In this document: piece by piece, positions 34,001-37,000 of the stretch
How the letters are laid out: every line of letters begins with the position of its first letter
Numbering within the stretch: position 1 is the first letter of the stretch
Source: a virus
Lineage: Duplodnaviria; Heunggongvirae; Uroviricota; Caudoviricetes
Length of the DNA stretch: 64,000 bases
Strand: one strand, 5' to 3'
IMG/VR virus record: IMGVR_UViG_2721755728_000011
Made by a program: the position numbers

Positions 34001-37000
34001 ATGCTGACATAGTTCCTTCACCCACTCTTCCTTGATAACAGATTCCCCGCTTCTGGAGTGTTTCACCACTTCGCGCAATACATTATGAAATCCAGTACCA
34101 GCACAATGCTCACAGCGAGCCTTACTTGCCGCAGACCTGGAATAATCAGCAAAGGCAAAATTCACAAGGTAAGGGATGATCTGTAACCGGGTTTCTTCAC
34201 TCAATTTGTTCAATGTCGGGTTATCCAGTGCCATCGCGTAATTGAGCAGACCTTCAATCGCAAATTGAGGATCCTGAACACCAACTTTTGCCAGGAATAA
34301 GGCAAACCCAAGCGGTGCTTTCGACTGCACCATCCCCTGCGCAGCCATCACATCCGTAATCGTTAAACCACCTGAGCCTGTCGCCGGTGCGTCATCGCTC
34401 AATTTTGGAGATTTTGGGGAGTAATATTTTGGTAAGGCTTCAAGGTTCATGCTCGTTCTCCACTTACGCCAGTACGCCAATTGCCAGCGCACGATCGATA
34501 AAACGAAATATCAGCTCCAGCTGGGAGCCATACTTCTCTTCAAATGCCACGGTATCCGCATGCAGCTCGTCGTGATGCTTTCTGCACAAAGGCAACACAA
34601 AGAGGTCATGCGCTTTTGTACCCATTCCACCCTGACCGTGGCCTATCAGGTGGTGGGGATCATCAGCAGGCTTTCCACAACATGCACACGGCTGTGTCTT
34701 AACCCAGCGCGTGTACTTTTCATTAACCCAGCGGCGACGTTTTGGGCGTAACATAAAAGACTCCGGCGACTCCGGATCCACTTTCAGCGCCAGCACCTTT
34801 TTCGCTTTATCCTGGATAATGCTGGTGGCAGGAACCGAAGGAACAAGGTCACTCTCCCGGGTGTACCCGGGAAAGTGACCTTGTGCCTTCGGTTCCTGCC
34901 ACCAGCATCATCCAGGATAAGGCGAAAAAGGTGCTGGCGCTGAAAGTGGATCCGGAGTCGCCGGAGTCTTTTATGTTACGCCCAAAACGTCGCCGCTGGG
35001 TTAATGAAAAGTACACGCGCTGGGTTAAGACACAGCCGTGTGCATGTTGTGGAAAGCCAGCTGATGATCCGCATCATCTGATAGGCCATGGTCAGGGTGG
35101 AATGGGTACAAAAGCGCATGACCTTTTTGTGCTGCCTTTGTGCAGAAAACACCACGACGAACTGCATGCGGATACCGTGGCATTTGAAGAGAAGTATGGC
35201 TCCCAGCTGGAGCTGATATTTCGTTTTATCGATCGCGCACTGGCGATTGGTGTGCTGGCCTGATTTTGTGGAGAAAGTTAATGCGTGATATTCAGATGGT
35301 TCTTGAACGTTGGGGAGCGTGGGCGGCTAATAATCATGAAGATGTGACCTGGTCGTCCATTGCCGCCGGTTTTAAGGGATTAATTCCTTCAAAAGTAAAA
35401 TCTCGCCCGCAATGTTGTGACGATGACGCGATGATCATTTGCGGGTGCATGGCCCGTCTGAAAAAGAACAACAGCGATTTGCACGATTTATTAGTAGATT
35501 ATTATGTAGTCGGTATGACATTCATGTCACTGGCAGGTAAGCATTGCTGCTCTGATGGTTATATCGGGAAAAGGTTACAGAAGGCTGAGGGCATAATTGA
35601 AGGGATGTTAATGGCATTAGATATCCGGTTAGAGATGGATATCGTTGTTAATAACTCTAATTAATATGCCAATTGTTTACTGAAAGTTATTAAAAATGGG
35701 GCGTTGCAACGCCCCCAAAAATAAAGGGTAATATATAACAGAAGGTTTATATAGTTAGAAGCAAGGTTGTGCTCCTAAAGGAAGTGGCTTGAGGGAGCCA
35801 CTTATATGTTGGGGAGGCAACGCCTCCCGCAACATATCTTTTTCGTAATCAGATTAGAACTGGTAAACCAGACCTACAGCAACGATGTCATCAGTGCTTA
35901 CACCGAGTGCTTTAGTGAAGTCATTTTTGTCAAGCAGGTTGATTTTGTAATCAACGAAAGTAGACATATTTTTGTTGAAGTAATAGGTTGCACCTACATC
36001 AACATATTTGACTAAGTCCTGATCGCCCCATACTCCAAGATCCTTACCTTTAGATTGCAGGTAAGCAACGGACGGACGCAGACCGAAATCGAACTGATAT
36101 TGTGCAACAGCTTCGAAGTTTTGAGCTTTATTAGCAACGAAGTGATCAGCAAATACAGTCATATTCTGGGTTTCAGAATAGGTAGTGGCCAGGTAAATGT
36201 TGTTAGCGTCATATTTCAGACCTGCGGCCCAAACTTCTGCATTTTTACCGGAAGCAAATACTTCAGGAAGAACTTTCCCTGCATTAACTTGAGTGTCGGT
36301 ACGATCAGATTTCGCATAAGTTGCACCGATACCGAATCCTTCGTATTCATAGGTAGCAGAGAAACCGAAGCCATCACCGTTACCTTCGGTGTAGTTATCG
36401 AAATCGCTACGATCGTTTTTGCCTTGGTACTGAGCAGCAAAGTTCAGACCATCAACCAGACCAAAGAAGTCGTTGTTACGATAGGTTGCAACACCAGTGG
36501 TGCGACCAGTCATGAACACATCTGTTTGGGTCCAGGTATCGCCACCGAATTCTGGCAGAACGTCAGTCCACGCACCGATGTCGTATGCTACACCGTAGTT
36601 ACGGCCGTAATCGATTGAGCCGTAGTCACCGAATTTCAGGCCTGCAAATGCAAGACGGGTTTTGTCTTTGGAGGAACCTTGAGATTCAGCGCGGTTGCCT
36701 TTGAATTCATATTCCCACTGACCGAAACCAGTCAGCTGATCGTTGATTTGGGTTTCGCCTTTGAAGCCCAGACGAACATAAGTAGTATCACCATCATCTG
36801 CATCGTTAGAGGAAAAGTAGTGCTTGGCATTAACTTTCCCGTACAGATCCAGCTTGTTACTGTCTTTATTATAAATTTCAGCTGCCTGAGCAGACATCGC
36901 CATCAGTACTGATGCAGCTACAGCAGAAATTGCCACTGTTAATTTTTTCATCGTGAGCCCTTTTTTTTGAACTATTATTAAAAAATGATGTCACTGCGCG

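What the first reader, a model, noticed from the sequence alone, without database searches (positions are those of the whole stretch)
34464..35263. ~800 bp near-perfect palindrome joining prophage segments 1 and 2 head-to-head
Two copies of the HNH-like gene and ~70 bp of 5' flank are inverted around CCCGG-GTGTAC-CCGGG with essentially no spacer. The arms are ~95% identical with mostly synonymous differences, and each copy precedes a different Q gene. Long palindromes with such short spacers are unstable in E. coli, so this is either a rare structural junction where both early regions were lost, or a chimeric assembly join; the diverged arms argue against a simple fold-back artefact.
Basis: seen in the sequence. 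Interest (0 to 1): 0.6.

Follow-up and report, generated by a model that had tools for sequence, protein, structure and literature searches.

The report
Chimeric head-to-head join of prophage fragments
The 800-bp palindrome is really in the sequence, but it is two half-genes from two different E. coli prophages butted together at the same base, most likely by an assembly or scaffolding error and not by biology.

Summary
Window 34464-34863 and 34864-35263 are inverted copies (94.5% identical, 22 mismatches in 400 nt) with no spacer. The arms are not whole genes. Each is the last 400 bp of a 990-bp DUF968/YdfU-family gene, and both are cut at the same homologous nucleotide. The left arm belongs to a prophage integrated at ssrA. 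The right arm starts a 17.8-kb block (34864-52671) that is 100% identical to the middle of the argU/DLP12-site prophage of related strains. That block ends in a second inverted junction (52671|52672) inside two tape-measure genes, exactly where the two natural genes become identical for 1,097 bp. Neither junction was found in 5,426 complete E. coli genomes, phage records, GTDB representatives, IMG/VR, JGI metagenomes or the protein-position index. All but 74 of the 64,000 bases are covered by exact 31-mers from five prophage loci of the closest relative, strain C3, and the three parent prophages lie megabases apart there. Read as real rearrangements on a K-12-like map, the junctions would remove oriC or leave a perfect kilobase-scale palindrome. 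A spacer-less palindrome of this size is lethal in sbcCD+ E. coli. Best reading (about 0.8): three repeat-bounded contigs abutted in wrong orientation. Interest is low.

The parts
34464..34863 (-). Left arm: 3'-terminal 400 bp (codons ~198-329 plus stop) of a DUF968/YdfU-family gene, 5'-truncated. Relative to strain C3 it is a hybrid allele: the last 127-234 nt before the junction match the C3 3.80-Mb prophage (P5), and the rest matches the C3 2.96-Mb prophage (P1).
34864..35263 (+). Right arm: 3'-terminal 400 bp of the DUF968 gene of the argU/DLP12-site prophage (P2), 5'-truncated at the same homologous base. It has 0 mismatches to C3 and OkiPb01675.
34863..34864 (.). Junction J1: blunt head-to-head join with no spacer, no filler and no microhomology. 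The two bases are the C/T SNP that distinguishes the two parental alleles.
33698..34450 (-). Antitermination protein Q, 250 aa (PF03589 plus a DnaJ-type zinc finger). In all natural contexts read it is preceded by an intact 329-aa DUF968 gene.
35281..35664 (+). Antitermination protein QuuD, 127 aa (PF06530), of the DLP12-site prophage.
1..34863 (-). Segment 1: chromosomal ssrA (tmRNA at 40-402, + strand) followed by the late region of an ssrA-integrated lambdoid prophage (tail fibres to Q, genes on the - strand). It is collinear throughout and tiles as large exact blocks of the C3 prophages Ps, P3, P1 and P5.
34864..52671 (+). Segment 2: 17.8-kb internal block of the argU/DLP12-site prophage (DUF968 3' part, quuD, porin, lysis genes, bor, terminase, head genes, proximal tail genes, 5' half of the tape-measure gene). 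It is 100.0% identical over its full length to the intact prophage of strain OkiPb01675.
52602..52671 (+). Last 70 nt of segment 2. They already lie inside the 1,097-bp stretch that is identical between the P2 and P3 tape-measure genes.
52670..52672 (.). Junction J2: tail-to-tail join of two 3'-truncated tape-measure genes. The AG at 52670-52671 could belong to either side. Base 52672 is the last nucleotide that distinguishes P3 from P2.
52672..64000 (-). Segment 3: terminase to the 5' half of the tape-measure gene of a third lambdoid prophage (P3, next to torT in strain C3), 99.94% identical to C3.

Best explanation
The palindrome is not a biological element. It is the seam where two sequence blocks, each ending at the edge of a multi-copy prophage repeat, were placed end to end in opposite orientation during assembly, scaffolding or contig concatenation. 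The host is essentially the same clone as bovine E. coli strain C3, which carries at least five lambdoid or related prophages that share a near-identical early-gene module (ymfL...Dam-LexA-RusA-KilA-N-DUF968 5' part) and near-identical distal tail genes. Copy-specific sequence resumes at the same homologous base in each copy, so the blocks for the ssrA prophage late region and the DLP12-site prophage late region both start at that base of DUF968. Abutted with one block reverse-complemented, they read as a spacer-less palindrome whose arms differ only by the synonymous SNPs between the paralogues. The same thing happens 17.8 kb further on, at the edge of a 1.1-kb exact repeat in the tape-measure genes. 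Shown here: the anatomy, the parentage of each block, the repeat boundary at J2, and the absence of both junctions elsewhere. Inferred: that the join was made by software, and which software made it.
For: (1) Uniqueness. 0 of 5,426 complete E. coli genomes span J1, and every match stops at window 34862-34864. There are no hits in 50,697 phage records, GTDB species representatives, IMG/VR or JGI metagenomes. The junction-specific ORFs (574 aa, 531 aa, 55 aa) are absent from the 153-billion-gene position index. (2) Every natural context read has an intact 329-aa DUF968 gene between KilA-N and Q. (3) Breakpoints follow the identity pattern between paralogues. At J2 the natural P2 and P3 genes are diverged before the breakpoint (122 ungapped mismatches in 300 nt) and identical for 1,097 nt after it. 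Segment 3 stops on its last distinguishing base and segment 2 stops 70 nt into the repeat. At J1 both arms start on the same homologous base, which is a C/T SNP preceded by 71 nt identical between the two parental alleles. Upstream lies a 3.3-5 kb module present in three C3 prophages at 96-98.5% identity, with exact runs of up to 511 nt. (4) The window is a mosaic of C3's own prophage copies. Only 74 of 64,000 bases lack an exact 31-mer from five C3 loci, and greedy exact tiling gives blocks of 10.9, 4.5, 6.1 and 17.7 kb from Ps, P3, P1 and P2. The left arm is a P1/P5 hybrid allele not seen in any of 5,426 genomes, where the best match is 99.5-99.6%. (5) Topology. The parents lie at 3.49 (ssrA), 0.27 (argU) and 4.61 Mb (torT) in C3. 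On a K-12-like map, J1 read as a two-break event closes an oriC-less arc into a circle, and J2 read as an inversion leaves a reciprocal perfect palindrome of the 1.1-kb repeat (inference from map positions). (6) Joins are blunt (J1) or share 2 nt (J2), and segment 2 has 0 mismatches in 17.7 kb to C3, so there is no sign of age. (7) A 460-bp perfect palindrome in the E. coli chromosome kills sbcCD+ rec+ cells, and only a central spacer of about 20 bp rescues them (PMC4245961). The window's palindrome has 400-bp arms, no spacer and a predicted 4-nt loop. (8) C3's own record breaks at the same tape-measure repeat boundary, at window-equivalent 52604.
Against: The source record, its assembly method and its reads are unknown, so no read-level proof exists. 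A simple de Bruijn unitig model with k = 71, suggested by the 70-nt overhang at J2 and the 71-nt identical run at J1, fails as a pure model: the window contains internal exact inverted repeats of 142, 137, 78, 74 and 74 nt that were assembled through. With C3's alleles the sequence upstream of J1 has SNPs every 50-140 nt, so J1 is a less clear-cut repeat edge than J2. Standard repeat-induced misjoins are collinear, and I cannot name a specific program that makes U-turn joins without inserting Ns. The five mismatches within 60 nt of the centre might lessen hairpin toxicity, so viability is not strictly excluded. One independent public contig (L014) has a collinear deletion ending at the same base, which could hint at a fragile site.
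Confidence: 0.8

Rival explanations
1. It is a real complex chromosomal rearrangement. A chain of template switches or break-joins moved a 17.8-kb piece of the DLP12-site prophage, in inverted orientation, between the truncated late region of the ssrA prophage and a truncated third prophage. This created a genuine 0.8-kb imperfect palindrome in the chromosome.
For: The arms are diverged and continuous with different flanks, so this is not a read fold-back. J2 has 2-nt microhomology, as in microhomology-mediated template switching. The mismatches at offsets 0, 9, 21, 45 and 57 might reduce hairpin nucleation. One unrelated contig has a deletion endpoint at the same base. Inter-prophage recombination is common in prophage-rich E. 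coli (general knowledge).
Against: No mechanism explains why inverted joins should fall on the same homologous base (J1) and on the last distinguishing SNP before a 1.1-kb exact repeat (J2). Homologous pairing yields collinear products, not inverted ones (inference). The structure was found in no other genome or metagenome. With parents at ssrA, argU and torT it would need further unseen junctions, including a perfect palindrome or loss of oriC. A spacer-less palindrome of this size is lethal in sbcCD+ cells (PMC4245961). Segment 2 has zero mutations in 17.7 kb.
Confidence: 0.12
2. It is a fold-back sequencing or library artefact, such as a missed SMRTbell adapter, a nanopore template-complement read-through or an MDA inverted chimera, in which one molecule is read forward and then as its reverse complement and that read is incorporated into the assembly.
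For: It is a spacer-less inverted join, the typical geometry of such chimeras (general knowledge).
Against: The two arms differ at 22 positions that match natural alleles of different prophages exactly. The right arm has 0 mismatches to P2, and the left arm has 0 mismatches to P5 over 234 nt and matches P1 beyond that. The flanking Q genes are unrelated families. A fold-back would give identical arms and identical flanks.
Confidence: 0.02
3. It is a programmed invertible or regulatory palindrome, for example a recombinase crossover site or a divergent promoter or operator between the two Q operons.
For: The arrangement is divergent, with Q genes on both sides.
Against: The centre lies inside the coding sequence and inside the Pfam DUF968 domain (aa 160-326, cut at about aa 197). 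There is no adjacent recombinase. No other genome has either orientation of such a structure. The arms differ only at synonymous sites inherited from the intact parental genes.
Confidence: 0.01

Closest known systems
Misassemblies or contig breaks at multi-copy lambdoid prophage modules in prophage-rich E. coli (EPEC/STEC-like strains)
   Same: Blocks end where copy-specific sequence meets sequence shared exactly with other prophage copies (J2: a 1,097-bp exact repeat). Each block continues normally past the breakpoint in other genomes. The junction is unique to one record. The closest relative's record (C3) is also irregular at the same repeat edge.
   Different: Typical repeat-induced misjoins are collinear copy switches, whereas here the two joins are U-turns (head-to-head and tail-to-tail) with no Ns. 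This points to abutting or mis-orienting of contigs and not to a mis-threaded repeat. The program responsible is unknown.
Engineered long palindromes in the E. coli chromosome (Leach laboratory: 246-bp and 480-bp interrupted, 460-bp perfect; PMC4245961, PMC3315005)
   Same: It is a long inverted repeat able to form a single hairpin (predicted dG -502 kcal/mol) with essentially no central spacer.
   Different: Those constructs are built from identical arms and are lethal (perfect) or need SbcCD-RecA repair (interrupted). This one has 5.5% diverged arms taken from two paralogous prophage genes, and nothing shows that it exists in a living cell.
Fold-back inverted duplications formed by template switching at short inverted repeats or by hairpin-capped breaks
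   Same: Head-to-head geometry, with breakpoints at or near the same coordinate in both arms.
   Different: In those events both arms derive from one locus and a short inverted repeat or microhomology marks the turn. Here the arms come from loci megabases apart and J1 has no microhomology. The CCCGGG sites are simply part of each arm and lie 2 nt from the join.
DUF968 / YdfU-family (PF06147) genes of lambdoid prophages, with a C-terminal putative HNH-type nuclease motif
   Same: Both arms hit PF06147 (E = 1.7e-64) and weakly hit PF16784 HNHc_6. They lie immediately upstream of Q, as in natural phages.
   Different: Natural genes are 329 aa and follow KilA-N. Both copies here lack the first ~197 codons and all upstream early genes and promoters.

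Membership tests
Assembly or scaffolding chimera at repeat boundaries | Each side of the join is contiguous natural sequence that continues past the breakpoint in independent genomes | tested here: met
   The right arm continues upstream into the intact DUF968 gene and KilA-N in C3, 2014C-4587 and OkiPb01675. The left-arm alleles continue likewise. The P2 and P3 tape-measure genes continue past J2.
Assembly or scaffolding chimera at repeat boundaries | Breakpoints coincide with the edge between copy-specific sequence and sequence shared exactly with other copies | tested here: met
   J2: 1,097 nt are identical immediately beyond the breakpoint and the sequence is diverged before it. J1: the breakpoint falls on a C/T SNP preceded by a 71-nt identical run, inside a 3-copy module at 96-98.5% identity. 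J1 is less sharp than J2.
Assembly or scaffolding chimera at repeat boundaries | The junction is absent from independent assemblies of related genomes | tested here: met
   0 of 5,426 complete genomes, and no hit in the phage, GTDB-representative, IMG/VR or JGI metagenome collections or in the gene-position index.
Assembly or scaffolding chimera at repeat boundaries | No reads span the join, or read pairs and coverage are discordant there | not testable with these tools
   The source record and its reads are not available.
Assembly or scaffolding chimera at repeat boundaries | The segments behave as unitigs of a single k-mer graph (tested for k = 71) | tested here: not met
   The window contains 155 repeated 71-mers, including exact inverted repeats of 142 and 137 nt. 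Only a path-resolving assembler or scaffolder could fit, not raw unitigs.
Biological fold-back inverted duplication | Both arms and their flanks derive from one locus | tested here: not met
   The arms match different prophage alleles exactly and the flanking Q genes are PF03589 versus PF06530.
Biological fold-back inverted duplication | A short inverted repeat or microhomology lies at the turn | tested here: not met
   J1 has 0 nt of microhomology and J2 has 2 nt. A switch mediated by CCCGGG would leave a single CCCGGG, but two are present, 4 nt apart.
Stable chromosomal long palindrome in wild-type E. coli | A central asymmetry of about 20 bp or more, as required for viability in sbcCD+ cells | tested here: not met
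   There is no spacer and the predicted loop is 4 nt. PMC4245961 shows a 460-bp perfect palindrome is lethal and a 20-bp spacer rescues it. The effect of the 5 mismatches in the first 60 nt is unknown.
DUF968 / YdfU-family gene (PF06147) | Significant match to PF06147 | tested here: met
   E = 1.7e-64 for the 126-aa ORF, covering profile positions 47-171 of 171.
DUF968 / YdfU-family gene (PF06147) | Full-length gene (~329 aa) in the order KilA-N, DUF968, Q | tested here: not met
   Both copies retain only the last 400 of 990 bp and have no KilA-N upstream.
Site-specific invertible segment | An adjacent invertase and short inverted crossover sites, with both orientations present in the population | tested here: not met
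   There is no recombinase near J1 or J2, and no genome holds the block 34864-52671 in this context in either orientation.

The most novel reading that the evidence does not exclude
The two junctions are real. A replication-based chain of inverted template switches between three paralogous prophages (ssrA, argU and torT sites) produced a head-to-head and a tail-to-tail fusion. On this reading a wild bovine E. coli stably carries a spacer-less 0.8-kb palindrome with 5.5% diverged arms, which would mean that a few central mismatches are enough to escape SbcCD killing.
Probability: 0.08. Interest if true: 0.6.

Novelty: not a real feature. Interest (0 to 1): 0.1.

Why it matters
If it is an artefact, as I conclude, its value is practical. 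It flags this record, and probably the prophage regions of the related C3 record, as structurally unreliable. Nothing should be inferred from the 'loss' of the early regions, from the orphaned Q operons or from the truncated tape-measure genes. It also gives a usable diagnostic: an inverted join whose two sides start on the same homologous base, at the edge of a multi-copy repeat, with each side continuing normally in other genomes. If the structure were real it would be of moderate interest to people who study palindrome toxicity and prophage-driven genome rearrangement.

Tried and rejected
(1) CCCGGG as the crossover site. Rejected because both CCCGGG copies are retained and the join lies 2 nt outside each, so they are ordinary arm sequence. 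No natural palindromic site exists at GT|TACC. (2) A pure de Bruijn unitig model with k = 71. It was suggested by the 70-nt overhang at J2 and the 71-nt identical run at J1, and it explains all four block ends if each unitig lacks its leading k-1 bases. It was rejected as a complete model because exact repeats of 142, 137, 78, 74 and 74 nt occur inside the blocks. It is kept only as a hint. (3) Homology boundary at J1. The natural alleles remain about 99% identical upstream of the breakpoint, so J1 is not at the end of homology. (4) Finding the source assembly. Exact and degenerate junction patterns in genome contigs (both scans), IMG/VR and metagenomes gave nothing. Exact look-ups of three junction-specific ORFs also gave nothing, and so did the neighbourhoods of the 126-aa ORF and the 250-aa Q gene. 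The 126-aa ORF does occur elsewhere, but only where the full gene is frameshifted or internally deleted, always in collinear context. (5) Literature on how strain C3 was assembled. An accession search returned unrelated papers, and PMC4317167 does not cover the C3 isolates, so I make no claim about it. (6) Deletion, inversion, invertase and restriction-ligation scenarios for a real origin. Each needs coincident breakpoints with no symmetric site, or it yields inviable products (reasoning from map positions).
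Full report
**1. Observation**

The inverted repeat exists as described. The repeat finder reports arms 34468-34862 and 34865-35259, 395 nt, 95% complementary, 2 nt apart. The sequence around the centre is ...GGTCACTCTCCCGGGTG|TACCCGGGAAAGTGACC.... Measured from the true axis (34863|34864), each arm is 400 nt long and runs to a stop codon, with 22 mismatches (94.5% identity), five of them within 60 nt of the centre. All 21 differences in complete codons are synonymous and the 22nd is a GTT/GTC third position. Both arms therefore encode the same 132 residues. 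As single-stranded DNA the 800 nt fold into one hairpin of -502 kcal/mol, z = -58 against shuffles. This is far beyond chance.

**2. What the arms are**

The arms are not complete genes with a 5' flank. In every natural context read, the gene upstream of Q is a 990-bp, 329-aa DUF968/YdfU-family gene that follows KilA-N.
- The Pfam DUF968 domain spans residues 160-326, with a weak HNHc_6 match at 251-308.
- The window keeps only nt ~591-990 of each copy, so the cut lies inside the domain.
- Natural alleles read ...GCCGTCTGT-T-ACCCGGGAAAG (the argU/DLP12-site prophage, called P2 here) or ...GCCGTCTGT-C-ACCCGGGAGAG.
- The left arm ends with the complement of that C and the right arm begins with that T.
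- Both copies therefore start on the same homologous nucleotide, which is itself a SNP. There is no spacer, no filler and no microhomology.
- The two CCCGGG sites are ordinary arm sequence.

**3. The wider structure**

The window starts in chromosomal DNA at the tmRNA gene (40-402) and has three segments.
- **Segment 1 (1-34863).** This is the late region of a lambdoid prophage integrated at ssrA, with genes on the minus strand, collinear all the way to DUF968.
- **Segment 2 (34864-52671).** This block is 100.0% identical over its full 17.8 kb to the interior of the intact DLP12-site prophage of strain OkiPb01675. It has 0 mismatches over 17,741 nt to strain C3.
- **Second junction, J2 (52671|52672).** Segment 2 ends where two tape-measure genes meet tail to tail, both 3'-truncated.
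- **Segment 3 (52672-64000).** This is the terminase-to-tape-measure part of a third prophage, P3, which lies next to torT in C3. It is 99.94% identical to C3 and on the minus strand.

**4. The breakpoints follow the identity pattern between paralogues**

At J2, the natural P2 and P3 tape-measure genes are diverged upstream, with ungapped mismatches at 6, 49, 54, 57... and 122 in 300 nt. From the breakpoint onward they are identical for 1,097 nt. Segment 3 stops on its last distinguishing base (52672). Segment 2 stops 70 nt into the shared stretch, and the AG at 52670-52671 could belong to either side.

At J1, the allele carried by the left arm (identical to the C3 3.80-Mb prophage, P5, for 234 nt) and the P2 allele are identical for exactly 71 nt upstream of the breakpoint. 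They differ at 0, 9, 21, 45 and 57 nt downstream. Further upstream lies the early-gene module (ymfL to the DUF968 5' part). Three C3 prophages carry it at 96-98.5% identity over 3.3-5 kb, with exact runs of up to 511 nt.

Only two things 'see' such identity patterns: homologous recombination and assembly software. Homologous pairing gives collinear products. It cannot join two same-sense copies head to head (inference).

**5. The window is a mosaic of the prophage copies of one known clone**

Strain C3 (NZ_CP010119.1) is the best or near-best match for every part of the window. Only 74 of 64,000 bases are not covered by an exact 31-mer from five C3 loci. Greedy exact tiling gives:

| Window coordinates | C3 copy | Note |
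|---|---|---|
| 1-10881 | Ps (ssrA prophage) | exact |
| 11673-16138 | P3 | exact, 4,466 nt |
| 16146-28637 | Ps and P1 | isolated SNPs |
| 28639-34736 | P1 | exact, 6,098 nt |
| 34737-34863 | P5 | exact, 127 nt |
| 34864-52604 | P2 | after the first U-turn, exact |
| 52605-52671 | shared repeat | 67 nt |
| 52672-64000 | P3 | after the second U-turn |

All switches inside segment 1 are collinear. The left arm is a P1/P5 hybrid allele. No genome among 5,426 has it, and the best matches are 99.5-99.6%. C3's own record is irregular at the same tape-measure repeat edge. Its P2 tape-measure gene jumps into a J fragment at window-equivalent 52604 and is followed by partial lom, J and tape-measure pieces.

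**6. Uniqueness**

- No complete E. coli genome spans J1; all 13,776 matching places stop at the centre.
- There are no hits in the phage records.
- The exact 38-mer and a SNP-tolerant 34-mer pattern are absent from the GTDB representatives. The 38-mer is also absent from IMG/VR and the SNP-tolerant pattern from JGI metagenomes.
- The fusion ORFs across J2 (574 and 531 aa) and an ORF across J1 (55 aa) are not on record.

**7. Plausibility as a real structure**

In C3 the three parent prophages lie at 3.49, 0.27 and 4.61 Mb. These correspond to ssrA, argU and torT, at about 2.75, 0.57 and 1.06 Mb on the K-12 map (my knowledge of the K-12 map).
- With those positions and orientations, J1 as a two-break event joins the ends of the arc that lacks oriC.
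- J2 as an inversion would leave a reciprocal junction that is a perfect palindrome of the 1.1-kb repeat (inference).
- A 460-bp perfect palindrome in the E. coli chromosome kills sbcCD+ cells even when they are recombination-proficient. The same arms with a 20-bp spacer are tolerated (PMC4245961).
- The present structure has 400-bp arms and no spacer. Whether its five near-central mismatches would rescue it is unknown.

**8. Conclusion and mechanism**

The best explanation (about 0.8) is that three repeat-bounded blocks were abutted without gap characters, with the middle one in the opposite orientation to its neighbours. The palindrome is the automatic result of placing two paralogous blocks back to back when both begin at the same repeat edge.

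I could not identify the software. A de Bruijn graph with k = 71 would account for the 70-nt overhang, the 71-nt identical run and the P1/P5 hybrid. It fails as a raw-unitig model because longer exact repeats were assembled through.

The rivals are:
- a real multi-step rearrangement (about 0.12);
- a read-level fold-back (about 0.02), contradicted by the different parentage of the arms and flanks;
- a programmed inverted element (about 0.01).

**9. Comparison with known things and novelty**

The genes are ordinary lambdoid prophage genes: DUF968/YdfU, two Q families, lysis cassettes and a lambda-like head-tail module. The junctions resemble neither fold-back duplications (one locus, microhomology) nor invertible segments. 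I file this as 'not a real feature'. Its practical use is as a warning about the structural reliability of this record's prophage regions.

Noticed in passing
window 52602-52672 (fusion ORFs 51327..53051 + and 52369..53964 -): There is a second inverted junction: two tape-measure genes are joined tail to tail exactly where the natural genes become identical for 1,097 bp. Together with the palindrome it brackets a 17.8-kb block of the DLP12-site prophage.
   Followed up: yes
L014 5982-5985 (Logan contig SRR14679120_187): An unrelated public contig carries a collinear ~2-kb deletion from a LexA-family gene into DUF968, with 4-nt microhomology (TACC). Its right edge is the same base as the palindrome centre. 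This may be coincidence or a hint of a fragile spot at GT|TACCCGGG.
   Followed up: partly
L003 31740-39000 (NZ_CP010119.1, strain C3, DLP12-site prophage): In the closest relative's 'complete' record the tape-measure gene jumps into a J 3' fragment 3 nt after the last P2/P3 SNP, followed by partial lom, J, lom and tape-measure pieces. C3 also has many genes annotated as frameshifted. That record looks unreliable at the same repeat edge.
   Followed up: partly
window 11673-16138: A 4,466-bp stretch of the ssrA prophage tail region is 100% identical to the torT-site prophage of C3 (J N-terminus, I, K, an Arc/Arc/Ant moron and part of L). C3's own ssrA prophage is only ~87% identical there. This is either inter-prophage recombination or a collinear mis-threading in one of the two assemblies.
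   Followed up: partly
window 34630-34863: The left arm is a hybrid of two C3 alleles: P5-type for offsets 0-57 from the centre and P1-type beyond offset 234. The switch lies inside a 107-nt stretch shared by both. No exact match to the 1.16-kb Q-DUF968 stretch exists in 5,426 genomes.
   Followed up: yes
window 30338-31310 and 37524-38496: The lysis cassettes (holin, lysozyme, Rz) of segments 1 and 2 form a 973-nt inverted repeat at 95% identity, with an exact 142-nt core. This is simply the paralogous lysis modules of the two prophages in opposite orientation.
   Followed up: partly
window 40-402 and 570-4700: The window begins at the tmRNA gene ssrA (tag ANDENYALAA). It is followed by cargo-like genes at the prophage end: a BRO-N domain protein, an HTH plus ImmA/IrrE pair and a GIY-YIG (LEM-3-like) protein, as annotated in C3.
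   Followed up: no
window 31362-32414 (-) and 35854-36951 (-): Two cargo (moron) genes flank the junction: a 350-aa N6/N4 DNA methyltransferase next to the left lysis cassette, and a 365-aa NmpC/OmpC-like porin downstream of quuD.
   Followed up: no
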